Positions 44,096 through 57,052 of a stretch of DNA of 64,000 nucleotides are shown here, piece after piece (the first letter of the stretch is position 1; the number at the start of each line of letters is the position of its first letter). Source of the stretch: a phage; the NCBI GenBank assembly GCA_028909515.1, contig GCA_028909515.1_4811.1. One strand, 5' to 3'. The notes under the pieces were generated by a model. The model ran no database searches. It was not told the origin of the DNA and saw nothing but the letters and a program-made list of their open reading frames with translations. Both the position numbers and the translations under genes were made by a program.

Positions 44096-44169
44096 TGTTG
44101 ACGTAAATTTACGAAAAATAAAACTGAAAATCAGTTTAATTAAAGTGGCATTGCCGCCATAGTTTTTAG

Positions 44170-44198
44170 TTGCTACTGGCGGCGACTGAAGGCATAAT
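44170..44198 (+). promoter_or_regulatory. sigma70-like promoter of the K/E/A-rich protein gene
   Basis: TTGCTA-N17-CATAAT. Confidence 0.5.
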
Positions 44199-44254
44199 TA
44201 AGTTATCCCAAACGGGGAATATAAAATAAACTAATTTATTTAAGGACTGTGAAT

Positions 44255-45094
44255 ATGGCCGAAGCAATCAAAGTATTATCTAAAGAAGAAAAACAAGCAG
44301 CCGCAGCAGAACGTCGTCGCGTGGCTGAAGAAAAACGCCTGGCTAAAAAGAAAGAAGCCGAAGAAAAACGCCAGAAGCGTGAGCAGGAAAAACAAGCCAA
44401 GCGTGAAGAAGCTGCGCTGAAACGCAAGCAGGCTGCTGATGAGAAGGCTCAGAAGCGTGCTGAAGAAGCAGCTAAGAAAGCTAAAGAGCGTGCAGAAAAG
44501 GCTGCTGCTAAGAAAGCAGAGCGTGAAGCCGCTAAAGCAGCAAAAGAAATCGAAAAGGCAAAGGCTAAAGAAGAAGCCAAGCGCCTGAAAGCTGAGCAGG
44601 CTGCGGCCAAGAAAGCAGAGCGTGATCAAGCCCGTGCTGCAGCGAAGGCCGAAAAAGAGAAGGCCAAAGAAGAAGCTAAAGCGAAACGCAAGGCAGAGCG
44701 TGAAGCTGCTAAGATTGCGGCGAAAGAAGCTGCAGAACAGCAGAAAGAACAGCGTAAGAAAGAAGCTGAAGAACGTCGCAAAGCCATCGCAGAACGTAAG
44801 GCTGCTAAAAAGGCAAACGGTCAGCGTCGTGCAAAAGCCACTCACTTCATCTACACTGGCAATGGCCTGAGCCAGCCGCAAGAGCATTCCACCCGTGGAC
44901 GCGTTCTGGCGGCGATCAAAGAAGGCGAAGTTGGCGTGGCGCAGTCTATCGATGAGCTGGGCGAAAAAGTTAAAGATCAACTGTTTGGCGCTTCCGTTCG
45001 CTCCTACCTGAGCAAGCTGGAAGAGATGGGCCACATCGAGTTTGTCGATGTTGAATCCAACGGCGATGCCGAAGACGGTGATCAAGCGGAATAA
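44255..45094 (+). CDS. Lys/Glu/Ala-rich charged helical protein (histone H1-like low complexity)
   Basis: About 190 aa of K/E/A/R repeats then a ~85-aa globular C-terminus; own promoter and terminator; host-optimal codons; ATG at 44255 preferred over GTG at 44249 for RBS spacing. Confidence 0.6.
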   Translation: MAEAIKVLSKEEKQAAAAERRRVAEEKRLAKKKEAEEKRQKREQEKQAKREEAALKRKQAADEKAQKRAEEAAKKAKERAEKAAAKKAEREAAKAAKEIEKAKAKEEAKRLKAEQAAAKKAERDQARAAAKAEKEKAKEEAKAKRKAEREAAKIAAKEAAEQQKEQRKKEAEERRKAIAERKAAKKANGQRRAKATHFIYTGNGLSQPQEHSTRGRVLAAIKEGEVGVAQSIDELGEKVKDQLFGASVRSYLSKLEEMGHIEFVDVESNGDAEDGDQAE

Positions 45095-45120: not shown

Positions 45121-45147
45121 GACCCACACTTGTTGTGGGTCTTTTTT
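45121..45147 (+). terminator. rho-independent terminator
   Basis: GACCCACA-cttgt-TGTGGGTC followed by TTTTTT. Confidence 0.65.
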
Positions 45148-45226: not shown

Positions 45227-46222
45227 ATGAACATGAAACAACCTGTAATGATTATCGGCGGCGGACTGGCAGGACTTATCACCGCGTGTCACTTCCCGAA
45301 CTCTATTGTGTACGAAGCAGGGGAACGAGCGCAACAGCACAAGGCACTGCTACGCTTTCGCGGCGAAGAAGTAAGCCGTATTACCGGAATCCCTTTTAAG
45401 GCCGTGACAGTTGACAAGGCTGTGTATTTTCGCGGTAACTACTACCACGACCATTGCCCAATCAACCTTGCCAATATGTATTCCATGAAGGTCACCAATC
45501 AGTTTGGCAGTCGTTCAATCATGAAGCTTAAAACTGCAACGCGTTATATTGCGCCTGATGACTTTTATGATCAGCTTGTCGACAAACTGGGTGACCGCAT
45601 ATTCTTTAATACTCCGGTTGATACTCTTTGCGGCTATAGCGAGACGCCAATCATCAACACGTCGCCGCTGCCAGTAATGATGAAGCTTGCTGGGATTGAT
45701 CAAAAGCTTGATTTCTCATTTGATAAAGCAAACATTCGCGTTTACCGCTTTAAGATTAAACGTAAGTGTGATTTGTATCAGACAATTTACTTCCCTGACT
45801 ACTCCGTCAGAACTTACCGCGCATCAATTACTGGTGACACGCTTATCATTGAAACAATTCCTTTGGTCAGCGTGAGTGAAGCTGCAGTTGAAGCCGCTGG
45901 CGGCATCACCCGTTATCGCGACATGAAGCTGCGCGCGGAAGTGGACGAAGTTCTGACCGCTTTTGGTCTTTCATGGAATGACATCTCTTTGGAAGAAGTT
46001 GAAAAGGTTGACCAGAAGTATGGCAAGATTGTAGACATTCCGAAAGACTTGCGACACGCCTTACTGCTCCAGCTGACTATGGATTTGAACGTATTCAGTG
46101 TTGGCCGATTCGCTACATGGCGCAACATCTTGCTTGATGACGTAGCTCATGACCTTGTTGAAGTTGAAAAACTCATCAAAGCAAATAACTATCAAAAATT
46201 TGCTTATATTGCTAATAAATAA
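45227..46222 (+). CDS. FAD/NAD(P)-binding oxidoreductase
   Basis: N-terminal Rossmann dinucleotide-binding motif 'VMIIGGGLAGLITA' with downstream acidic residue ('VYEAGE'). Confidence 0.6.
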   Translation: MNMKQPVMIIGGGLAGLITACHFPNSIVYEAGERAQQHKALLRFRGEEVSRITGIPFKAVTVDKAVYFRGNYYHDHCPINLANMYSMKVTNQFGSRSIMKLKTATRYIAPDDFYDQLVDKLGDRIFFNTPVDTLCGYSETPIINTSPLPVMMKLAGIDQKLDFSFDKANIRVYRFKIKRKCDLYQTIYFPDYSVRTYRASITGDTLIIETIPLVSVSEAAVEAAGGITRYRDMKLRAEVDEVLTAFGLSWNDISLEEVEKVDQKYGKIVDIPKDLRHALLLQLTMDLNVFSVGRFATWRNILLDDVAHDLVEVEKLIKANNYQKFAYIANK

Positions 46223-46287: not shown

Positions 46288-46734
46288 ATGAAACGAATCA
46301 CTGGAATCGCGCTTGCCGCGACTGCTATTCTCGGCACCATGTATATGGAAGCGACTGAAGCCGCCGTCCGTACTTCCGATTCAATCGCTGTTTACGATTG
46401 TGAAGCGATGGACGGTAAGACCGCAGCAACGACTGGTGCGAAGATTACCACTTACATCGGTGTGAATGAGCAAGAAGGTCTGAATATTCAGATTCAGGGA
46501 TTCACGGGAAAAGGCGCCAACCGGACTCCGTGGATGCAGCGTTTCACTTTCGTTCAACCTCGTTCAACTGGCGCCTTTATCAACCTGATTGGTGAAAACC
46601 GTTCTGGTGCAGAAATCTTTACATCAATGAGTTCCAATAATGAACCAAAGAAAAGTTTTCAGTTGCTTTATAACGCACAATTCGTTTATCATTGCACCTT
46701 CTCTGGTGATCAGCAACTAGTTAACTACCGTTAA
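46288..46734 (+). CDS. hypothetical protein with N-terminal hydrophobic/signal-like segment
   Basis: 148 aa; 'ITGIALAATAILGTMYM' at N-terminus. Confidence 0.45.
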   Translation: MKRITGIALAATAILGTMYMEATEAAVRTSDSIAVYDCEAMDGKTAATTGAKITTYIGVNEQEGLNIQIQGFTGKGANRTPWMQRFTFVQPRSTGAFINLIGENRSGAEIFTSMSSNNEPKKSFQLLYNAQFVYHCTFSGDQQLVNYR

Positions 46735-46747
46735 TAGGATAATTAAA

Positions 46748-47551
46748 ATGAAAGTTGAATTAATTCGATACACCCAAGATGCACTTGACCTTTTGCTGGA
46801 AACAAAGAACACGCGCATGACTGGTAAGCCAGTCTCTGAGATGACAGAATCAGAGAAGCAAGAGCACTGGCGATACATGCTTGACACAATCAAGTCGCCT
46901 TTTGATTTTGTGGACTATATCTTTGACATCACTGATGTATCAAAGAATATGACTCATCAGATGGTGCGCACGCGCACAGGTGCATATCAAGAACGTACAA
47001 GCCGCGCTCAGGAATCTTCTGCTTTTGATGCGATTCGTCCTGCCAAATTTACTTACCCAGAGGATGATCCAAAGGGATGGACTCGTCATGACGAGAAGGC
47101 TGCTGAACTGGCAGAGAAATGGGATGATGCGATGGCCACGATTGACGCCCTCTACCAAGAGCTTCGCGCGGCTGGCGCAGAGATTCAAGATGCACGTGCC
47201 GTGTTGCCTTCTAATATGCAAACGCATATCATGGCAAAGTTCAACTTGCGAACGCTGCAACAGATGGCGTCAAACCGCTTGTGCACGCGCACCCAAGGCG
47301 AGTATCAGGAAGTTTTCCGTGCGATGGTAGCTGAAGTCCTCAAGGTGCATCCGTGGGCTAATCCTTTACTACAGCCGCAATGCATCGGCATGGGCAAGTG
47401 CGCATTCCCTCGCCATGGCAAGGCCCATTGCCCTTGGTATCGTGATTGGATGGATACCACTGCACAGCAAGAAGAATTACGCATCCAGTTTTGGAATGCA
47501 ATGCCAATCACCAATAATCCGGTTGCCAAAGATGGAGTATCAAAAGGATGA
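46748..47551 (+). CDS. ThyX-fold protein (flavin-dependent thymidylate synthase family), divergent signature
   Basis: Collinear with recalled ThyX sequences: 'FDITDVSKNMTHQMVRTRTGAYQERTSRA' versus canonical '...HE.VRHR.AS.SQ.S.RY', and 'FNLRTLQQMASNRLCTRTQGEY' versus 'NLR...HF..LR....AQ.EIR'; RHR is replaced by RTR and the Tyr after S-x-R by Ala. Confidence 0.65.
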   Translation: MKVELIRYTQDALDLLLETKNTRMTGKPVSEMTESEKQEHWRYMLDTIKSPFDFVDYIFDITDVSKNMTHQMVRTRTGAYQERTSRAQESSAFDAIRPAKFTYPEDDPKGWTRHDEKAAELAEKWDDAMATIDALYQELRAAGAEIQDARAVLPSNMQTHIMAKFNLRTLQQMASNRLCTRTQGEYQEVFRAMVAEVLKVHPWANPLLQPQCIGMGKCAFPRHGKAHCPWYRDWMDTTAQQEELRIQFWNAMPITNNPVAKDGVSKG

Positions 47552-48420
47552 GCATTAAAAACAGCGAAATCTTAAACGTATTCGACCTTGACGGAACGCT
47601 GTTTGATGACCGTTGGCGCTTAGACCGCATCAAGGTGGCAGGTCCGTTGTCAGACTATGATGACTATCACAGCGGTATTGGTTATGATCAGTTCTATCCT
47701 CACATTGCATCAGCAGTAGAGTCGGCATCTCTTCGCGGTGAGGCGGTTGAATATTGGACTGCAAGGCCAGAAAAATACAGACAAGTGACTTTTGAACGTC
47801 TGGACAATGTTTTCCCTTTTGATGAATTTACAATCAAGATGAGAGACTATGGCGACAAACGTCCATCAACTATCATGAAATCTGCATGGCTATCGCACGC
47901 ATTGCGGCACGGTGATTATCGAATCATCAATGTATTCGACGACCGACAAGACGTACTCGCGCGGATGCAAGATGAAGCATTGTATTATAATTCCGTTGCT
48001 CAAAATAAAATCGCTTTTACATTTAATCTTTGCAAGGCAGGTGAAGTGGTGCAACAATTAGCAATTGATCCAAGCGCAACAGGGCAAGAAGAGACTAAGG
48101 CTGTGGAAGTTGAACAATCTCCGGCAACTGCCGCCGATATTCTTGATGCAATGGCAGCAACCTTCCGTGAGCGCAACGCTGTCTATGGCGATAACGCTGT
48201 GATGGTAGGTCAGGTTATGCAGGTGCTTTTCCCTAATGGCGTAACGTTGAAAACGCCGGAAGACTACCACATGTGGCATCTGTTCGAGCTTAAGATTGTC
48301 AAGCTTACACGCTTTGCAATCAGCGGCCTGAAGCACGAAGACTCTATACACGATGATGGTGTTTACAGCGCCATGTGTGAACGTCTTGTAAACACCCATA
48401 ATATTAATTTCAATAAATAG
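47548..48420 (+). CDS. HAD-family phosphatase fused to an alpha-helical C-terminal domain
   Basis: HAD motif I 'VFDLDGTLFDD'; 4-nt overlap with the ThyX-like gene. Confidence 0.55.
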   Translation: MSIKNSEILNVFDLDGTLFDDRWRLDRIKVAGPLSDYDDYHSGIGYDQFYPHIASAVESASLRGEAVEYWTARPEKYRQVTFERLDNVFPFDEFTIKMRDYGDKRPSTIMKSAWLSHALRHGDYRIINVFDDRQDVLARMQDEALYYNSVAQNKIAFTFNLCKAGEVVQQLAIDPSATGQEETKAVEVEQSPATAADILDAMAATFRERNAVYGDNAVMVGQVMQVLFPNGVTLKTPEDYHMWHLFELKIVKLTRFAISGLKHEDSIHDDGVYSAMCERLVNTHNINFNK

Positions 48421-48449
48421 TTTACTTGTGCGTTTCGATGAGTTATATT
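48421..48449 (+). promoter_or_regulatory. sigma70-like promoter with conserved downstream box
   Basis: TTTACT-N17-TATATT followed by TACCTCATCGAAACGAA. Confidence 0.5.
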
Positions 48450-48485
48450 TACCTCATCGAAACGAAGTCCAAAAAGGATAAATAA

Positions 48486-49169
48486 ATGAAAAAAGTAATT
48501 GTTGTAACAGGTTCCAATTCCGGTCTTGGTAAATCTATTTTTGACACCCTTGGCGCTTACGGTCATAACGTGCTTGGCATCGATTCAGCATACGGATATG
48601 ACGTCCGCGATGCTAAACAGATGAAAGAAATTTTAAGCCCATATGATGTTGAAGGCTTGATCAACTGTGCTGGTGTCAACTCTAACAACTGGTTCGAAGA
48701 TGTTAACTACGAAGAGTTCAATCGCGTTATGCACACCAACGCCTTCTCTTTCGTCAACACGACTCAGGCCGCGCTGAAAAGTCTTATCGACAACAAAGGC
48801 TTTGTGATCAACATCGTTTCCAACGCTGCGCATATTCCTATGACGTCCAGCTTGTGTTATAATGCATCCAAGGCTGCTGCGCTTATGATCAGCAAGCAGA
48901 TGGCTCACGAACTTACGCCTAAGTACGGCATCACGGTATTCTCTATTAGTCCTAACAAGTTGCGCGGCACTGGCATGTCTAAACAGATTGAAGATGCCGT
49001 TTGTGCGACTCGCGGCTGGACTCCTGAATACGCTGCTGAATACCAGAAAAAGGCATTGATGAATGGATTGGAGACTGAGCCGCAAGTAATTGCCGACTTC
49101 ATTCGCCATATCTTAATTACGGGCGCATGGCGCTTTATGTCTGGCACTGATATTCCATTTGGTAAATAA
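48486..49169 (+). CDS. short-chain dehydrogenase/reductase (SDR)
   Basis: 'VIVVTGSNSGLGKSI' cofactor motif and 'YNASK' catalytic Y-x-x-x-K; promoter upstream. Confidence 0.65.
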   Translation: MKKVIVVTGSNSGLGKSIFDTLGAYGHNVLGIDSAYGYDVRDAKQMKEILSPYDVEGLINCAGVNSNNWFEDVNYEEFNRVMHTNAFSFVNTTQAALKSLIDNKGFVINIVSNAAHIPMTSSLCYNASKAAALMISKQMAHELTPKYGITVFSISPNKLRGTGMSKQIEDAVCATRGWTPEYAAEYQKKALMNGLETEPQVIADFIRHILITGAWRFMSGTDIPFGK

Positions 49170-49265
49170 ATCACGAACATTTTAAGTTGTCACACCCGCT
49201 CCTGAAAAGAAACAGGACGAAGACAACACAGTAATTAATCAATAATATTTAATTAAGGAAACAAA

Positions 49266-49817
49266 ATGCCACATTTTAAAATTGAACAAATCGCCCTGTC
49301 AATTCCAGATGCTCAGCGCGCACAGGATTTCTTGGCTAAAATCGGCCTGACGGAATGGTTCCATGATCATGTTGTTGCTACTGGTCGCGTATTTGAAGCT
49401 GATGACTTTAAAGGTCGTCGCGACGATTGCACCAATGAAGCTGACTTGCGCTTCAACTATCAGGCTGGCAACGGTACTGATGGCGGCGCTGGTAAGCCTC
49501 TTGAGCTTGAAATACTTGACTACACAATGGGCTGCAACTGGATTAACGAAAACATCGAATATATCGATGCGCATGACAATCAGGTCAGCCACCTTGGCAT
49601 GCATGTGACTGCCGCTGAACTTGCTGAATGGCGTAAGTTCTTTAGCGAAGAAGGCATTCAGGTTGCACAGGAAGTTGTAACTGACTCTCATACCAACCCG
49701 AACATTGCTGGTCAACGTCGTTACAACTATGTGATCTTTGATACGCGTGAAATCATCGGTGTTGATTTGAAGTTTATCGTGCGCTTGAATCAAGACGGTA
49801 CTCCGTACACTGTATAA
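49266..49817 (+). CDS. VOC/glyoxalase-fold protein (tentative)
   Basis: 'PHFKIEQIALSIPDAQRAQDFLAKIGL' and 'SHLGMHVTAAELAEWRKFFSEEGIQV' resemble paired glyoxalase-type modules. Confidence 0.4.
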   Translation: MPHFKIEQIALSIPDAQRAQDFLAKIGLTEWFHDHVVATGRVFEADDFKGRRDDCTNEADLRFNYQAGNGTDGGAGKPLELEILDYTMGCNWINENIEYIDAHDNQVSHLGMHVTAAELAEWRKFFSEEGIQVAQEVVTDSHTNPNIAGQRRYNYVIFDTREIIGVDLKFIVRLNQDGTPYTV

Positions 49818-50414: not shown

Positions 50415-53311
50415 TGTTTCCACAATTGAGAGTTCGCAGCGGTTACACGTTCAAAGAAGTTTATGGACGGCATCCTGAAATTATAGCACGGCTCAAAGAG
50501 TTGGGCTGCGAAGTCGCGGCATTAGTTGATAACAACACATGGGGTCACGTCCGCTGGGAAAAGGAATGCCAGAAAAATGATATTAAGCCTATGTTTGGGA
50601 TGGAGATTCCAATCATCGACCCTGATGCGGACCCTAAAAAGGGATTCAAACCGAAGGCTTGGATATTGGCCCTTGACTTAAAATCTTTTTACAACGCTAC
50701 GACACTTGCAACGCAGCGTGGTGGCCTTACCCGTGCAGAGTTCGGTGCGCTTGATGGCGTCGTTAAATTCTGTGGCGGTGCCGTTGAGCTGCTGCGGCCA
50801 GAGGACTACGATTATATAGACGTCAACCCATCATCGTTCCTTTTGGCTAAGCGCCAGGTGTTGGCTCACCGCAGCAACGGAAGGCCGCTGGTTTTAACCG
50901 GATACAACCACATGCCTTCACCTAAGCACGTTGACTTTGCTTATGCTTGGGAAGTGCGCGACACGGTCAAGCCGCACTGCATCGTTGACGCGGAAGACTT
51001 GCGCAAACAGCTTAAAGGCATCTTGACTGAAGATGAGCTCAATCAGGCAACGGCCAATGCTGTTGACATAGCAAACGGCATAGTCGGACTTGACCTGAAA
51101 TTGCGTAAGGCACCGATTATTCACCTTGCTGGTGACATGGTAAAGCTTGCTCGCGAGGGGATGGAGTATCGTCTCAAAGCAGGTCACATCAAAGAGTGGA
51201 CTCAGGAATATGAGGACCGCTTCAACGAAGAAATTCACCAGATTCAGCTGAAAGATTTCGACTCATACTTTCTGGTAGTAGCGGACCTTGTACGATTCGC
51301 AAAAACAAAAATGCTCGTCGGGCCTGCTCGCGGCTCATCGGCTGGTTCACTTGTTTGCTATTGCCTCGGCATCACGGAAGTGGACCCAATCCCGTATAAG
51401 CTGCTGTTTGCCCGATTCATCGACGTAAGCCGCGCCGACCTTCCTGACATCGACATCGACTTTGAAGATACCAAACGCTACATGGTGTTTGATTATCTTA
51501 AAGAGAAATATGGCGAAATGAACGTTGCAAAGCTTGGCAACATCAACACGCTTAAGGCCAACTCAGTAATGGCGCAGGTTGGTAAGAAGTTCAACATTGG
51601 ATACCACGAAACGGCCAACATTAAAAACGCACTGCTTGAATACTCATCCGGTGACGCCCGTTATGGTCACGGCCTGGAGGATACCTTTGCAACAACGACC
51701 ACGGGCCAAGAGTTTGTGGCGAAATATCCTGACGCCGCGCGTTGCATGGGTGACCTTGAGATTCACCCGTCTCACACAGGTGTTCACGCAGCGGGAATCA
51801 TTGTGTGTAATGACCCAATCTCTGATTACTGTACTGTAACTGCAGAAGGGATTGCGCAAATCGATAAGCCTGACAGCGAATACCTAAACCTTTTGAAGCT
51901 TGATGCGCTGGGCCTTCGTACTCTCGGAATCATTTCTGATACTGGCGTGATAGATGCTGAAACGCTGTACGGAATCAAGCTTGATGACCAAAGCGTCCTT
52001 GACATCCTTAACGAAAACAAGATGTCAGGCATCTTCCAGTTTGAAGGCGACGCTGTACGCTCAGTAACCAACTTTGTGCACGTTGATAACTTTAACAAAA
52101 TCGATAACCTGACAGCACTTGGCCGACCTGGCCCGTTGTCGTCCGGTATGGCCCAGAAATACATTGAACGCGCGGCAGGACGTGCGCCGATTGAGTACGA
52201 CGTGCCGCAGCTTGAGCCGTACTTAAAAGAGACTTACGGCGTGTTTCTTTACCAAGAGCAAATCATGGCCGTGGTTAAAGAGATTGGTTCATTTGACTGG
52301 GCGAAAACATCCGCTGTACGTAAGGCGATGTCAGGTCGTAAGGGTGAGGAATACTTTAACAAGCTTGGCGAAGACTTCGTTGCAGGAGCAATAAATAACG
52401 GCGTACCGGAAGCGGATGCAAGAAAGCTTTGGCAAGCGATGGCGACGTTCGGGTCATGGGGCTTTAACAAGTCACACTCCGTATCATACGCGGTCGTGAC
52501 CTACTGGACCTTGTGGCTTAAGCGACACTACCCGTTGGAATTTGCCGCTGCTTGCTTACGCGCTGCTAAGGACGAAGACCAGACGATTGCGATATTACGT
52601 GAACTTGCGAAGGAAGGCGTGGATTATGTGCCAATCGACCCTGATCACTCTTCAATGAACTGGACCATCGCTAACGGAAAGCTAATCGGCGGCATCATGA
52701 ACGCAAAAGGATATGGCATGGTGAAGGCAATGAAGTATATCGAAGCACGTGAAGCCGGAACCTTAACGCAAAAGCAAAAGGATGCATTGGCCAATGCTGA
52801 AGTCAAATACGGCGACCTTACAGAGATGCACACAAAGTTCGGATGGGCATATAATGACCCCTATCTGATTGGCGTTACTTCCGGTGCTTCAATACGCCAG
52901 ATGAAGGAAGTCGGCGATGACGAGCGTGCAATAGTGATCGGCAAGTTGACCAAGAAAGTGCTGGCTGACGAGAACGAAGCGACACGCATCCGTAAACGTC
53001 TTGAGCGCGGCATTTATACAAAGCACGGCAAACTTAAAAAGGGTCTTCAAGCTGATGGCCGCTACGCAGAGTTTGACCAGTATGGAAACAAGCTTGAGAC
53101 TCAGTTCATTGACCTTATGTGCAAGGACGATTCGACCGACTCGCCAATGCGCTTCAGGATTCGTCCAGAGAAGTTCCAGAAATACGGGAAATACATTGCA
53201 GAGAACGTCGGGAACGGCGCATTCTTCCTGATGAAAGGCCGCAAACTTGAAGGCATTGACATGTTCATCGTCGACGTTATCAAACAGGTGTATCCAGATG
53301 GCAACAAATAA
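50414..53311 (+). CDS. DNA polymerase III alpha-type (DnaE-like) replicase
   Basis: 965 aa; N-terminal PHP-like region; 'GPARGSSAGSLVCYCLGITEVDP' matches the conserved Pol III alpha motif. Confidence 0.8.
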   Translation: MFPQLRVRSGYTFKEVYGRHPEIIARLKELGCEVAALVDNNTWGHVRWEKECQKNDIKPMFGMEIPIIDPDADPKKGFKPKAWILALDLKSFYNATTLATQRGGLTRAEFGALDGVVKFCGGAVELLRPEDYDYIDVNPSSFLLAKRQVLAHRSNGRPLVLTGYNHMPSPKHVDFAYAWEVRDTVKPHCIVDAEDLRKQLKGILTEDELNQATANAVDIANGIVGLDLKLRKAPIIHLAGDMVKLAREGMEYRLKAGHIKEWTQEYEDRFNEEIHQIQLKDFDSYFLVVADLVRFAKTKMLVGPARGSSAGSLVCYCLGITEVDPIPYKLLFARFIDVSRADLPDIDIDFEDTKRYMVFDYLKEKYGEMNVAKLGNINTLKANSVMAQVGKKFNIGYHETANIKNALLEYSSGDARYGHGLEDTFATTTTGQEFVAKYPDAARCMGDLEIHPSHTGVHAAGIIVCNDPISDYCTVTAEGIAQIDKPDSEYLNLLKLDALGLRTLGIISDTGVIDAETLYGIKLDDQSVLDILNENKMSGIFQFEGDAVRSVTNFVHVDNFNKIDNLTALGRPGPLSSGMAQKYIERAAGRAPIEYDVPQLEPYLKETYGVFLYQEQIMAVVKEIGSFDWAKTSAVRKAMSGRKGEEYFNKLGEDFVAGAINNGVPEADARKLWQAMATFGSWGFNKSHSVSYAVVTYWTLWLKRHYPLEFAAACLRAAKDEDQTIAILRELAKEGVDYVPIDPDHSSMNWTIANGKLIGGIMNAKGYGMVKAMKYIEAREAGTLTQKQKDALANAEVKYGDLTEMHTKFGWAYNDPYLIGVTSGASIRQMKEVGDDERAIVIGKLTKKVLADENEATRIRKRLERGIYTKHGKLKKGLQADGRYAEFDQYGNKLETQFIDLMCKDDSTDSPMRFRIRPEKFQKYGKYIAENVGNGAFFLMKGRKLEGIDMFIVDVIKQVYPDGNK

Positions 53312-55314: not shown

Positions 55315-55578
55315 ATGGTACGCATCCTTGAACGTTACAAAAATGAAGCTACTGGTGCAATCGCTTTCAAACGTCTTTTGGTCAAAGAAATTGACGGGAT
55401 GTTCCGCGTTGTTAAAGAGTTTGATTATGGCAACGGTGCTGGGGTGAATACCGTTATTATGCCTGGCATCAAGGCATATAAAACATTGAAAGGCGCTGAG
55501 AAGGCTTTGGCGGCTTGGAAACCTGAACGTTATCAAATGACCCGTGTTGAAGGGCTAATGCAAGAAGGTAAAATATGA
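55315..55578 (+). CDS. hypothetical protein
   Basis: 87-aa ORF behind promoter TTGACT-N17-CATAAT. Confidence 0.5.
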   Translation: MVRILERYKNEATGAIAFKRLLVKEIDGMFRVVKEFDYGNGAGVNTVIMPGIKAYKTLKGAEKALAAWKPERYQMTRVEGLMQEGKI

Positions 55579-56132
55579 GCAATATTAATTGGGAAGATGA
55601 TTTGCCGCAGGTCGCTCCTGAGAGCATTCAAGAGCGCCTTGCGCGCTTAGTATCTGAACTGGCAGAACGCCAAGAAGCTTTGACAGAGCTTGAAGATGAA
55701 GCTGATATGCAAAAGCAGCGAATCAGTGAAATCAAAACTGTTCTGCTTCCTGGCGTTATGGATGAGCTTGGCGTGTCCGAAATCAAGCTTGAGGACAAGA
55801 CCAAAATCAAGGTCGAGTCCAAGGTGAACGCTTCAATCAAGAAAGAAAACGAATTAAAAGTTTTCGATTGGCTTGTCAACAACGGTTACGGCGGCTTGAT
55901 CAAGTCCAGCGTCACGGCTGAGTTCGGTCGCGAAGAAATCGAACAGGCGCAAGAGATTGTTGCCGCGCTGCGTGAAGATGGTGTTGAAGCCACGTTGAAA
56001 CAAGGCGTTCATTCTGCTACACTGAAGTCGTTTGTAAAAGAACAGCTGGAAGCGGGCAATCCAGTTAGTGAAGATATTAGCGTTTTTGAATACAAAGAAG
56101 CTAAAATAACCTTGCCTAAAAGCAAAAAGTAA
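55575..56132 (+). CDS. coiled-coil protein, possibly Gam/Gp157-like DNA-end-binding (tentative)
   Basis: 185 aa; acidic N-terminal coiled coil then mixed alpha/beta region; immediately precedes SSB-like gene. Confidence 0.3.
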   Translation: MSNINWEDDLPQVAPESIQERLARLVSELAERQEALTELEDEADMQKQRISEIKTVLLPGVMDELGVSEIKLEDKTKIKVESKVNASIKKENELKVFDWLVNNGYGGLIKSSVTAEFGREEIEQAQEIVAALREDGVEATLKQGVHSATLKSFVKEQLEAGNPVSEDISVFEYKEAKITLPKSKK

Positions 56133-56191: not shown

Positions 56192-57052
56192 ATGTCTAAG
56201 AAAGAAACCACCGAAGTTGCAGTGAAAAACACCCAGATGTCCGCTATGGCTGATTTTGTCGACATGACCGATTTTGGCGCTGGTTTTGAAGGTGCCGATG
56301 CCGATGCGTATGCCATTCCTTTTATCGTCGTACTGCAGAAGATGTCTCCTATGGTCGACGAAGATGATCCGAAACACGTTCCTGGCGCAAAAGCTGGCAT
56401 GCTTTACAACACCGTTACTGGTGAGTTGTATGACGGCAAGAAAGGCGTGCAGATCATCCCTTGCGCATTCAAACGCACCTTCATTCTTTGGGGCGGTCGC
56501 GAGTCCGACGATAAAGGCTTTAAAGGTGAATTCACCAAAGAGCACGTTGATGCAGAAGTCGCGGCAGGCCGCGCTGTTGAGATCAACGGTAAGGTATTCG
56601 TGCCGGACGAAAACGGCAAGGTGCACGAGAAGAAATCTCCTTACTACGCAGATACACGCAACCACTTCGTAATTCTGTTGAACGAAGAAACTGGTGAATT
56701 TGGTAGCGCAATGCTGTCTCTGACTTCTTCCATGATCAAGCCGTCTCGCATGCTGATGACCGCCCTGCAGCAGAAGAAAGTTCAGACTCCGCAGGGTCTG
56801 AAAACGCCGCCGACCTTTATGAACATTGTTCGCATGGGTACTGCATCCCAGTCCAAAGACGGCAATACATGGTCTGTTCTGAAGTTTGAGCTGGAAGGTC
56901 TGGTGCAGGACAAAGGTCTGTACGAAGTCGCCAAGGCATTCCACAACGACGTAGTTGGCGGTAACGTTAACATCGACCGCAGCAAGCAGGAAGAAGCAAG
57001 CGGTGCCGCTGGTCCTGTCAATGAAACTCCGACCGACGCAGAAGAGTTTTAA
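56192..57052 (+). CDS. single-stranded DNA-binding protein-like (gp2.5-type acidic tail)
   Basis: 286 aa; acidic C-terminus ending '...ETPTDAEEF'; host-optimal codons; own terminator. Confidence 0.5.
   Translation: MSKKETTEVAVKNTQMSAMADFVDMTDFGAGFEGADADAYAIPFIVVLQKMSPMVDEDDPKHVPGAKAGMLYNTVTGELYDGKKGVQIIPCAFKRTFILWGGRESDDKGFKGEFTKEHVDAEVAAGRAVEINGKVFVPDENGKVHEKKSPYYADTRNHFVILLNEETGEFGSAMLSLTSSMIKPSRMLMTALQQKKVQTPQGLKTPPTFMNIVRMGTASQSKDGNTWSVLKFELEGLVQDKGLYEVAKAFHNDVVGGNVNIDRSKQEEASGAAGPVNETPTDAEEF

What the first reader, a model, noticed from the sequence alone, without database searches (positions are those of the whole stretch)
44255..45094. Stand-alone, highly expressed-looking Lys/Glu/Ala-rich protein, histone-H1-like in composition
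About 190 residues of near-continuous K/E/A/R repeats predicted to form a long charged helix, followed by a ~85-aa globular C-terminus. The gene has its own sigma70-like promoter and a strong terminator and uses host-optimal codons, suggesting abundance. Candidates: a DNA-condensing or nucleoid-associated protein, an internal virion protein, or a molecular ruler. The antisense ORFs called across it are low-complexity artefacts.
Basis: partly seen in the sequence, partly recalled or inferred. Interest (0 to 1): 0.5.

Follow-up and report, generated by a model that had tools for sequence, protein, structure and literature searches.

The report
Abundant phage winged-helix protein on charged stalk
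This is a real, very highly expressed gene of an E. coli Wifcevirus phage, mislabelled "TolA" in databases, that joins a roughly 28 nm charged helix with one basic and one acidic face to a small winged-helix domain; its function is still unknown.

Summary
**Observation: confirmed.** Window 44255-45094 (+) encodes a 279-aa protein. A single predicted helix covers residues 2-186 (85% K/E/A/R), followed by a ~75-aa domain and a 14-aa acidic tail. It has the highest codon adaptation of 95 ORFs in the window, equal to E. coli ribosomal-protein genes. A strong terminator follows the gene. Its Pseudomonas phage 14-1 ortholog is an experimentally mapped single-gene transcript with a sigma70 promoter and its own terminator.

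**What it is.** The window is a Wifcevirus. The gene is a core gene of PB1-like phages (PHROG 4765), usually annotated "TolA protein" or "putative structural protein".
- The TolA name is a composition artefact.
- The C-terminal domain models as a winged helix with no Pfam family; only 38 clusters match among 1.84 billion representatives.
- The helix keeps one unbroken 11-residue register, giving a basic stripe opposite an acidic stripe. This holds in 15 of 15 relatives tested.
- It is nearly charge-balanced across the family, so it is not histone-H1-like.

**Function.** Published mass spectrometry proves abundance, but virion incorporation is inconsistent. My best guess (confidence 0.35) is an abundant architectural or adaptor protein associated with phage DNA, working with the replication and thymidine-hypermodification module. 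Interest is moderate.

The parts
44145..44160 (+). Weak terminator-like hairpin with a T-run, downstream of the Dda-like helicase gene. It probably marks the end of the upstream operon.
   Evidence: Positional analogue of 14-1 terminator T011, which ends the helicase operon just upstream of promoter P034.
44170..44198 (+). Candidate sigma70 promoter TTGCTA-17-CATAAT. The predicted start site is near 44205, giving a 5' UTR of about 50 nt.
   Evidence: 9 of 12 consensus positions, not above chance by itself. Supported by orthology: the 14-1 sigma70 promoter P034 start site lies 44 nt upstream of the ortholog's ATG. A similar TTGCCT-17-GATAAT sits 58 nt upstream of the MyoSmar ortholog.
44241..44245 (+). 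Shine-Dalgarno sequence AAGGA, 9 nt before the ATG.
   Evidence: Read directly from the sequence.
44255..45094 (+). Coding sequence of 279 aa, a member of PHROG 4765. Databases call it 'TolA protein', 'putative structural protein' or hypothetical.
   Evidence: Peptides from both ends of the protein were detected by mass spectrometry in vB_Eco4M-7.
44258..44812 (+). Residues 2-186: one continuous charged alpha-helix, about 28 nm long. It has 17 unbroken 11-residue (hendecad) turns, with a K/R stripe at columns 2, 6, 9 and 10 and an acidic stripe on the opposite face.
   Evidence: AlphaFold2 model. Register and helical-wheel analysis. K/R periodicity of 3.65-3.70 with z 4-18 in 15 of 15 relatives. 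Only 5.8% LIVMFWY.
44825..44848 (+). Residues 191-198, RRAKATHF: the conserved basic junction motif (RRxKATH) leading into the first beta-strand.
   Evidence: Alignments. R191 and R192 are conserved in 81-83% of sequences.
44837..45049 (+). Residues 195-265: winged-helix-like domain with the order strand, H1, strand, H2, H3, strand. The third helix carries the conserved motif G-x-x-(V/I)-R-x-(Y/F)-L-S-K-L-E-E-x-G-H.
45050..45091 (+). Residues 266-279: disordered acidic C-terminal tail with net charge -6.
   Evidence: pLDDT below 50. An acidic tail is typical of the family: median net charge -6.5, range 0 to -18. The tail is present in the mature protein, because the C-terminal peptide gave 162 spectrum matches.
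45121..45147 (+). Intrinsic terminator: 8-bp stem, 5-nt loop, T6.
   Evidence: Equivalent terminators follow the orthologs in LBL3, XcP1 and Kyle, and the one in 14-1 (T009) is experimentally mapped.

Best explanation
The gene encodes a very abundant, non-enzymatic protein specific to PB1-like phages. It is transcribed on its own from a host-type promoter.

**Parts of the protein**
- A rigid charged alpha-helical stalk about 28 nm long. An unbroken 11-residue register places the Lys/Arg residues in one straight stripe and the Glu residues on the opposite face.
- A small, previously unclassified winged-helix domain, preceded by an invariant Arg-Arg motif.
- An acidic tail.

**Proposed role**
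I propose an architectural or adaptor protein that sits on phage DNA, or on a DNA-bound partner. Binding would go through the winged helix, the RR motif and perhaps the basic stripe. The stalk would act as a spacer or as a self-associating charge zipper. The protein would work alongside the replication and thymidine-hypermodification genes that flank it.

Its appearance in purified virion preparations is best explained by abundance and DNA association, not by a fixed structural role.

**Shown:** gene, expression, abundance, transcript architecture (by orthology), fold class (predicted), charge stripes, synteny.

**Inferred:** DNA association, the adaptor or spacer role, and any link to DNA hypermodification.
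For: **Expression and abundance**
- CAI is rank 1 of 95 ORFs and equals that of E. coli ribosomal-protein genes.
- vB_Eco4M-7 gave 422 spectrum matches with a summed area of 3.1e9, above the portal protein.

**Own transcription unit**
- The 14-1 ortholog has sigma70 promoter P034 and terminator T009, defining the single-gene unit TU035.
- Terminators follow the gene in this window and in LBL3, XcP1 and Kyle.

**Winged-helix fold**
- AlphaFold2 pLDDT is about 90.
- R191, R192, R214, R249 and K254 are conserved.
- The domain's median pI is about 9.

**Charge stripes**
- Within 60 degrees either side of the K/R direction, residues are 64% K/R and 3% D/E.
- The K/R periodicity is conserved in 15 of 15 relatives and absent from TolA domain II.

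**Genomic context**
- The gene always lies between the Dda-like helicase and a ~330-aa GxGxxG protein plus ThyX.
- Three divergent relatives are still directly followed by a gene that overlaps their stop: homologous to that protein in two (41-44% identity) and resembling its N-terminus in the third, where only 24 residues are on the contig.
- The two genes have nearly identical phage distributions: 357 and 362 records.
- Pbunavirus DNA carries hypermodified thymidine.

**Virion data**
- The protein is absent from DNA-free ghost particles of SCUT-S1, although its neighbours were detected there.
- The cryo-EM paper on E217 does not mention gene products gp64-gp68, the numbers I searched for; I did not establish the ortholog's own number in E217.
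Against: - No direct evidence of DNA binding exists.
- Foldseek against the PDB gives no significant match; the best E-value is 0.33.
- The winged-helix domain of this particular phage is neutral (net -1, pI 6.3), and several orthologs are acidic overall.
- Ionic DNA binding should not survive a CsCl gradient. The very high signal in the vB_Eco4M-7 virion preparation therefore argues for real encapsidation there.
- Synteny may reflect common descent of one phage lineage rather than functional coupling.
- The structure comes from a 7-sequence alignment.
Confidence: 0.35

Rival explanations
1. It is a genuine internal virion protein, packaged with the genome and released or ejected with the DNA. 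This would resemble T4 internal proteins, whose genes also lie outside the structural module.
For: - The signal in CsCl-purified vB_Eco4M-7 is as strong as the portal's: 422 spectrum matches and score 1197.6, against 1112 for the portal.
- High-salt CsCl should strip loosely bound proteins.
- The protein was also detected in ECML-117.
- The LBL3 and LMA2 orthologs were deposited as 'putative structural protein'.
- Absence from LiCl ghost particles that have lost their DNA fits a DNA-associated cargo.
Against: - ECML-117 encodes an identical protein but gave only 2 spectrum matches, about 1% of the portal's score.
- The same preparations contain glyoxalase-like, FabG-like and helicase proteins. 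These are the other high-CAI non-structural genes, which points to carry-over of abundant proteins.
- The FoX6 and FoX7 orthologs stayed 'hypothetical' after virion mass spectrometry.
- The E217 cryo-EM paper does not mention the gene numbers around the ortholog.
- The protein is unprocessed at both ends.
- The 14-1 ortholog is driven by a host-type sigma70 promoter, not the phage-specific promoter motif.
Confidence: 0.22
2. It is a protein-protein adaptor that does not bind DNA. The winged helix and acidic tail would dock a phage or host protein, such as the neighbouring FAD-type enzyme, the Dda-like helicase or a replisome component. The stalk would space or oligomerise the complex.
For: - The structural neighbours include protein-binding winged helices: RPA32C, ScpB, Scc1-C and peptide-binding RRE domains.
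- The domain's charge is neutral to mildly basic, and it is followed by an acidic tail like those that recruit partners in SSBs (the SSB comparison is from my own knowledge).
- The third helix is almost invariant across hosts whose genomes differ widely in GC content. That fits a conserved protein target.
- In divergent relatives the gene is translationally coupled to the 331-aa homolog.
Against: - No interaction data exist.
- Very high abundance is unusual for an adaptor of enzymes.
- The conserved RR motif and the basic stripe look more like a surface for binding a polyanion.
Confidence: 0.2
3. It is a histone-H1-like or protamine-like DNA condenser that compacts DNA by polycationic charge neutralisation.
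For: - The Wifcevirus protein has a helix net charge of +25 and a pI of 9.7.
- The winged helix plus Lys/Ala-rich extension superficially mirrors H1.
- Weak sub-threshold hints point to nucleoid proteins: Pfam NA37 in 5 of 31 members at E >= 0.005, and hhalign probability 24% to YejK.
Against: - The helix is 21.6% acidic.
- Relatives have a helix net charge of -8 to +14, and whole-protein pI goes down to 4.8.
- An acidic stripe and an acidic tail would repel DNA.
- There is no linker-histone Pfam hit, and Foldseek matches to H1 are not significant.
Confidence: 0.08
4. It is a phage transcription factor that redirects host RNA polymerase to the phage-specific (CTGGG-type) promoters found in 14-1.
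For: - 14-1 has 11 non-sigma70 promoters that are inactive without phage factors.
- The gene itself is read from a host-type promoter.
Against: - Ribosomal-protein-like abundance and a 28 nm stalk are atypical for a transcription factor.
- The authors of the 14-1 study propose gp12 for this role.
- The MotA similarity is generic to the winged-helix fold.
Confidence: 0.07
5. It is a TolA homolog or mimic, or a conventional coiled-coil structural fibre or ruler.
For: - Databases name it 'TolA protein'.
- Uncorrected BLASTP against E. coli TolA gives E 1e-32.
- It has a long helix.
Against: - With composition correction the E-value is 0.17.
- It has no transmembrane anchor; the maximum Kyte-Doolittle score is 0.61.
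- No TolA_C or TolA model hit appears in Pfam or NCBIfam.
- TolA domain II lacks the K/R periodicity.
- There is no hydrophobic heptad or hendecad core; LIVMFWY is 5.8%.
- The N-terminal part preceding the winged helix ranges from 88 to 274 residues.
- The gene lies outside the structural module, and the tape measure protein is already assigned in Pbunavirus.
Confidence: 0.03

Closest known systems
PHROG 4765: 'TolA protein' or 'putative structural protein' of PB1-like phages (LBL3 ORF66, the 14-1 ortholog named 'gp67' in the transcript tables, vB_Eco4M-7_83, ECML-117 gp81)
   Same: These are orthologs. Nucleotide identity within Wifcevirus is 97-99.5%. They share the same architecture and the same position between the Dda-like helicase and the ~330-aa FAD-type protein plus ThyX.
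   Different: Nothing differs; this gene is that family. The family has no assigned function, and its common names are a composition artefact (TolA) or rest on mass-spectrometry detection only.
E. coli TolA domain II (extended K/A/E-rich periplasmic stalk)
   Same: Both are long Ala/Lys/Glu-rich helical stalks of about 200 residues. Both plausibly act as rigid spacers.
   Different: The phage protein has no membrane anchor, no TolA C-terminal domain and no similarity once composition is corrected (E 0.17). TolA-II has no 3.67-residue K/R stripe.
Linker histone H1/H5 (winged-helix globular domain plus Lys/Ala-rich tail)
   Same: Both join a winged-helix module to a long Lys/Ala-rich extension. 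Both are abundant.
   Different: The extension here is N-terminal, helical and about 22% acidic, and it is charge-balanced in most orthologs. There is no PF00538 hit, and the structural match is not significant at E 3-6.
ER/K-type charged single alpha-helices (SAH domains of myosins and similar proteins), from my own knowledge
   Same: Both are very rich in E/K/R with almost no hydrophobic residues, are predicted as one long helix, and likely act as rigid spacers.
   Different: The i to i+4 opposite-charge enrichment typical of SAH domains is weak here (z 1.4). Instead, like charges align every 11 residues into separate basic and acidic faces, and Ala is 30%.
Generic winged-helix domains (BlaI/MecI, ArsR, Fur, RPA32C, the MetAP2/Ebp1 insert)
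   Different: There is no sequence-family membership: no Pfam, NCBIfam or PDB sequence hit. The N-terminal strand replaces the usual second wing strand. The family has only 38 clusters among 1.84 billion representatives.

Membership tests
TolA (Tol-Pal system) | N-terminal transmembrane anchor | tested here: not met
   The maximum 19-residue Kyte-Doolittle score is 0.61. The N-terminus is MAEAIKVLSKEEK.
TolA (Tol-Pal system) | TolA C-terminal domain III, or a match to a full-length TolA model | tested here: not met
   Pfam returned no families. NCBIfam returned no TolA model.
TolA (Tol-Pal system) | Sequence similarity beyond composition | tested here: not met
   BLASTP against E. coli K-12 TolA gives E 0.17 with composition-based statistics and 1e-32 without.
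Linker histone H1/H5 | Linker-histone globular domain (PF00538) | tested here: not met
   No Pfam hit. Foldseek against H1 globular domains gives E 3-6.4 and probability 0.11-0.15.
Linker histone H1/H5 | Polycationic tail with almost no acidic residues | tested here: not met
   The helix is 21.6% D/E. Its net charge in relatives is -8 to +14. It is predicted helical with high pLDDT.
Winged-helix fold | Three-helix bundle packed on a small antiparallel sheet, with the third helix followed by a strand | tested here: met
Winged-helix DNA-binding proteins | Demonstrated or clearly predicted nucleic-acid contact surface | not testable with these tools
   Conserved R191, R192, R214, R249 and K254 are suggestive.
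Charged single alpha-helix (SAH, ER/K) | High E+K+R, few hydrophobic residues, continuous predicted helix | tested here: met
   K+R is 35%, D+E 22% and LIVMFWY 5.8%. The helix spans residues 2-186.
Charged single alpha-helix (SAH, ER/K) | Enrichment of oppositely charged pairs at i and i+4 | tested here: inconclusive
   z is 1.4 at i+4, 2.3 at i+3 and 3.8 at i+5. Like charges are enriched at i+7.
Coiled coil | Periodic hydrophobic core (heptad or hendecad) | tested here: not met
   LIVMF shows no periodic signal, and Ala periodicity is weak and inconsistent across relatives. Charge-zipper or Ala-mediated association is not excluded.
PHROG 4765 | Profile match over the full length | tested here: met
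   E 8.6e-84 over residues 1-279. The C-terminal 85 aa alone give E 1.5e-40.
Virion structural protein | Reproducible, stoichiometric presence in purified particles | tested here: inconclusive
   From the literature: 422 spectrum matches in vB_Eco4M-7 against 2 in ECML-117. Absent from SCUT-S1 ghost particles. FoX6 ortholog not re-annotated after virion mass spectrometry. Gene numbers around the ortholog not mentioned in the E217 cryo-EM paper.
NA37/YejK nucleoid-associated protein | Significant profile match | tested here: not met
   Pfam NA37 matches only 5 of 31 members, at E >= 0.0049 and below the curated cut-off. hhalign probability against E. coli YejK is 24%.

The most novel reading that the evidence does not exclude
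The unbroken 17-turn 'Janus' helix, with a basic stripe opposite an acidic stripe, could be a self-assembling charge zipper. It would coat or bundle the phage's hypermodified DNA. In that role it might target or shield thymidine hypermodification together with the translationally coupled FAD-type enzyme, or be co-packaged between DNA strands in the capsid. That would be a new kind of phage chromatin protein in a clinically used phage family.
Probability: 0.12. Interest if true: 0.75.

Novelty: new variant of a known kind. Interest (0 to 1): 0.4.

Why it matters
- **Therapeutic relevance.** This is a core gene of Pbunavirus and Wifcevirus and probably one of their most highly expressed. Pbunaviruses are among the Pseudomonas phages most used in therapy. 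Yet the gene has no assigned function and a misleading database name.
- **Corrected annotation.** Removing the "TolA" label is useful in itself.
- **A defined architecture.** The protein combines a conserved hendecad helix with separate basic and acidic faces, a narrowly distributed winged-helix domain and an acidic tail. That gives experimenters a concrete object to test.
- **A possible link to DNA modification.** The gene's tight linkage to an FAD-type enzyme and ThyX may connect it to the recently reported thymidine hypermodification of these genomes.
- **A warning about annotation.** Calling a protein "structural" from virion mass spectrometry can simply track protein abundance.

Tried and rejected
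- **TolA homology:** rejected. E is 0.17 after composition correction, with no anchor and no domain III.
- **H1-like polycation:** rejected on family-wide charge.
- **DNA tandem repeat as the origin of the low-complexity region:** only a 2-copy 15-nt match was found.
- **Sequence searches for a named family:** Pfam, NCBIfam and PDB sequences gave nothing significant.
- **YejK/NA37 hint:** not significant.
- **Word-indexed homolog search:** found only 2-5 partial proteins. The exhaustive profile search found 38 clusters.
- **Foldseek:** the AFDB50 library was unavailable. Foldseek against the PDB gave no significant hit.
- **Literature that could not be read:**
  - the Pa193 LC-MS tables and the FoX6 Table S2 are not held;
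  - Ceyssens et al. 2009, the likely source of the 'structural protein' label, is not in the library.
- **Pantoea phage PA1 'LRP':** this is a different 8.5-kDa protein.
- **N-terminal helix-capping motif (phi-x-phi-T/S-x-E-Q-K):** present in only a subset of relatives, so not claimed as a family feature.
- **Molecular ruler:** no support; the N-terminal part preceding the winged helix ranges from 88 to 274 residues.
Full report
**Where we are.** The 1.3 kb around the finding is 97-99.5% identical to 29 Escherichia/Shigella myophages of the genus Wifcevirus (TH35, WFC, vB_Eco4M-7, ECML-117, Bas98-101). In those records the gene is called "hypothetical protein" or "TolA protein". In phage WFC it lies after a small ORF and a Dda-like helicase. 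Downstream come a ~330-aa protein, ThyX, a PNK-like protein, a FabG-like reductase and the DNA polymerase genes. A terminator is annotated right after it.

- The ORF runs from ATG 44255 to 45094 and encodes 279 aa. An AAGGA sequence 9 nt upstream fits this ATG rather than the GTG at 44249.
- K+E+A+R make up 68% of the protein. The median of 95 non-overlapping ORFs in the window is 27% and the runner-up is 43%. The first 190 residues are 85% K/E/A/R.
- AlphaFold2, run on a 7-sequence alignment, predicts one helix over residues 2-186, a compact strand/helix domain at 195-265 and a disordered tail.
- The terminator at 45121-45147 is strong.
- The promoter match TTGCTA-17-CATAAT at 44170-44198 is only 9 of 12 positions and no better than chance on its own.
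- The ortholog in Pseudomonas phage 14-1 settles the promoter question. ONT-cappable-seq mapped a sigma70 promoter (P034, start site 51317) 44 nt upstream of its ATG, and a terminator (T009, 50323). Together they define a 994-nt single-gene unit. The upstream helicase operon ends at its own terminator, T011, just before that promoter.
- Terminators also follow the orthologs in LBL3, XcP1 and Kyle. A similar promoter-like site precedes the MyoSmar ortholog.
- For codon bias I built CAI weights from 29 E. coli K-12 ribosomal-protein and elongation-factor genes. The gene scores 0.679, rank 1 of 95. The window median is 0.38 and the reference genes' own median is 0.68. Both the helix part and the domain part score high.
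- The antisense ORFs are artefacts. The only sense codon that reads as a stop on the other strand is TTA at 44276, exactly where the 269-aa antisense ORF ends.
- There is no DNA tandem repeat.

**The protein is made, and made abundantly.** Necel et al. 2020 (PMC7048862) analysed CsCl-purified vB_Eco4M-7 by mass spectrometry.
- The ortholog, vB_Eco4M-7_83, gave 7 peptides, 25.8% coverage, score 1197.6, 422 spectrum matches and a summed area of 3.1e9.
- For comparison, the portal gave score 1112, 559 spectrum matches and 2.0e9.
- In-silico trypsin digestion shows that only the C-terminal domain yields usable peptides. The coverage is therefore close to the maximum attainable.
- Both the very C-terminal peptide (162 spectrum matches) and EEKQAAAAER (residues 11-20) were seen. 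The protein is therefore not processed at either end.

**Is it a virion protein?** The evidence is mixed.
- ECML-117 encodes an identical protein, by the WFC record's note and the authors' own BLAST table, yet it gave only 2 spectrum matches. That is about 1% of the portal's score.
- The other non-structural proteins detected in these preparations are a 31.2-kDa protein, a glyoxalase-like protein and a FabG-like reductase. They correspond to the other highest-CAI ORFs of the window (56192-57052, 49266-49817, 48486-49169). Detection therefore tracks abundance.
- In Pbunavirus SCUT-S1, ghost particles were made with LiCl so that the DNA was released. The ortholog S1_069 is not among the 31 proteins identified there, although its neighbours ORF70 and ORF72 are.
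- The FoX6 and FoX7 orthologs remained "hypothetical" after virion mass spectrometry.
- The E217 cryo-EM paper does not mention gene products gp64-gp68, the numbers I searched for on the assumption that they lie around the ortholog.
- In favour of packaging, CsCl is a high-salt step that should strip ionic contaminants. LBL3 and LMA2 were also deposited with the label "putative structural protein". I could not read the paper I take to be the source of that label.

**Family and distribution.**
- The protein matches PHROG 4765 (unknown function) at E 8.6e-84.
- tblastn with the C-terminal 97 aa finds 357 phage records: Pbunavirus (293 Pseudomonas records), Wifcevirus, Kyle, MyoSmar, tabernarius, Carpasinavirus, Burkholderia phages and an Aeromonas phage.
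- In the seven phages from different genera whose loci I fetched, the gene sits directly after the Dda-like helicase. In six of them it is followed by a protein of about 310-330 aa, and ThyX lies further downstream where the fetched stretch reaches it; tabernarius has only small ORFs after the gene.
- An exhaustive profile search of 1.84 billion cluster representatives finds only 38 clusters at E <= 1e-3.
- Nearly all have the same layout: a variable N-terminus, a charged helix, RRxKATH, the domain, and an acidic tail.
- The domain has no Pfam, NCBIfam or PDB sequence match.

**The C-terminal domain.**
- Model pLDDT is about 87-91 over the core. The element order is strand, H1, strand, H2, H3, strand.
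- Foldseek against the PDB gives no significant hit; the best E is 0.33.
- In the BFVD library of viral structures only orthologs match.
- Positions conserved in at least 80% of sequences include R191, R192, Q209, S212, R214, R249, K254, L255, E256 and H260.
- The domain's median pI is about 9, but this phage's copy is neutral. The tail is acidic in most members, with a median net charge of -6.5.
- The fold class is therefore supported, by prediction. Whether the domain binds DNA or a protein remains open.

**The helix is not generic low complexity.**
- Written in rows of 11, all 17 rows stay in one register. Columns 2, 6, 9 and 10 are 59-71% K/R and 0-12% D/E. Columns 1, 3, 4, 7 and 8 are 33-44% D/E.
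- On an 11/3 helical wheel, the sector within 60 degrees either side of the K/R direction is 64% K/R and 3% D/E. The acidic mean direction lies 178 degrees away.
- A K/R periodicity of 3.65-3.70 residues is found in 15 of 15 family members, with z 4-18 against shuffles. It is absent from E. coli TolA domain II (z -1.9).
- Hydrophobic residues are 5.8% and show no periodicity, so there is no classical coiled-coil core.
- Net helix charge is +25 here but -8 to +14 in relatives. Whole-protein pI spans 4.8-9.9.
- This argues against an H1- or protamine-like polycation. It argues for a rigid stalk with two opposite charged faces, acting as a spacer, a polyanion-binding stripe or a self-associating charge zipper.

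**The TolA name.** BLASTP against E. coli K-12 TolA gives E 1e-32 without composition correction and 0.17 with it. There is no transmembrane segment and no TolA model hit. The annotation is a composition artefact.

**Context clue.**
- Four divergent family members were traced to their contigs. In two (L011, L012) the gene is directly followed, with overlapping stop and start, by a homolog of the window's 331-aa GxGxxG protein at 45227-46222 (41-44% identity). In a third (L010) only 24 residues of the overlapping downstream gene are on the contig, and they resemble that family's N-terminus by eye. In L011, ThyX comes next.
- That protein (PHROG 4828) was annotated "UDP-galactopyranose mutase" by Necel et al.. 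Its phage distribution is almost the same as this gene's: 362 against 357 records.
- A 2025 preprint reports that Pbunavirus DNA carries a sugar-type hypermodified thymidine, replacing about a quarter of T in a TG motif.
- The flanking ThyX, PNK/HAD-like, FabG-like and glyoxalase-like genes are plausible pathway members. That assignment is my inference.
- No SSB or other DNA-coating protein is annotated in the part of the curated Bas99 genome I examined, which covers the replication and early regions.

**Interpretation.**
- I favour an abundant architectural or adaptor protein associated with phage DNA, acting with the replication and hypermodification module (confidence 0.35).
- The main rivals are a genuine DNA-linked internal virion protein (0.22) and a pure protein-protein adaptor (0.20).
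- An H1-like condenser (0.08), a transcription factor for the phage-specific promoters (0.07) and a TolA homolog, fibre or ruler (0.03) are less likely.
- Everything beyond gene, expression, fold class, charge pattern and synteny is inference.

Noticed in passing
window 45227-46222 (+): A 331-aa protein with an N-terminal GxGxxG dinucleotide-binding motif (PHROG 4828, no Pfam hit), annotated 'UDP-galactopyranose mutase' by Necel et al. It co-occurs with the finding's gene (362 against 357 phage records). In divergent metagenomic relatives its start overlaps that gene's stop.
   Followed up: partly
window 46748-49817 (+): ThyX, a PNK/HAD-like protein, a FabG-like reductase and a glyoxalase-like protein lie in a row. 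Pbunavirus DNA was recently reported to carry sugar-type hypermodified thymidine (bioRxiv 10.1101/2025.03.31.646159). This cluster may therefore be the Wifcevirus version of that pathway. Wifcevirus DNA modification was not checked.
   Followed up: no
window 56192-57052 (+) and 55575-56132 (+): A 286-aa protein of the Pam3_Gp34 family (PF23977, E 4e-86) has the second-highest CAI in the window (0.652). It probably corresponds to the 31.2-kDa protein vB_Eco4M-7_70 detected by mass spectrometry. Its upstream neighbour is DUF7307 (Pam3 gp33-like). Both have unknown function.
   Followed up: partly
L003 (phage 14-1), inside the ortholog's winged-helix coding region; record position 50518 (-): ONT-cappable-seq places three internal start sites (P031-P033) and an early terminator (T010) inside the 14-1 ortholog. 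One of the start sites, P032, is a phage-specific 'other motif' promoter whose core overlaps the codons for ...EVMGW. The Wifcevirus sequence (GAGATGGGCCAC) lacks that CTGGG core.
   Followed up: no
family members P0008, P0012, P0013, P0018, P0021, P0022, P0024 and tabernarius gp79 (N-termini): Many orthologs begin with a His-rich segment ahead of the charged helix, for example MSHTHHHD, HKHHNHDHN and HDHQHNHQHNHE. The Wifcevirus protein lacks it. This may be a metal-binding or pH-sensing feature.
   Followed up: no
window 44151-44185 (+): GCCGCC and GGCGGC could pair across the predicted -35 hexamer of the gene's promoter. This alternative hairpin overlaps the upstream terminator-like stem. 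It was not folded or compared across genera.
   Followed up: no
window 46288-46734 (+): A 148-aa ORF with a signal-peptide-like N-terminus (MKRITGIALAATAILGTMYMEATEA) and no Pfam or PHROG match. It sits between the FAD-type gene and ThyX.
   Followed up: no
L010 26-628 and L011 1178-1630 (upstream of divergent family members): The upstream neighbours share an N-terminal motif (L..YN.L.GK.IKKF..RA.AE.RV) with the N-termini of the divergent winged-helix proteins P0038 and P0039. This suggests a paralogous module in those uncultured phages.
   Followed up: no
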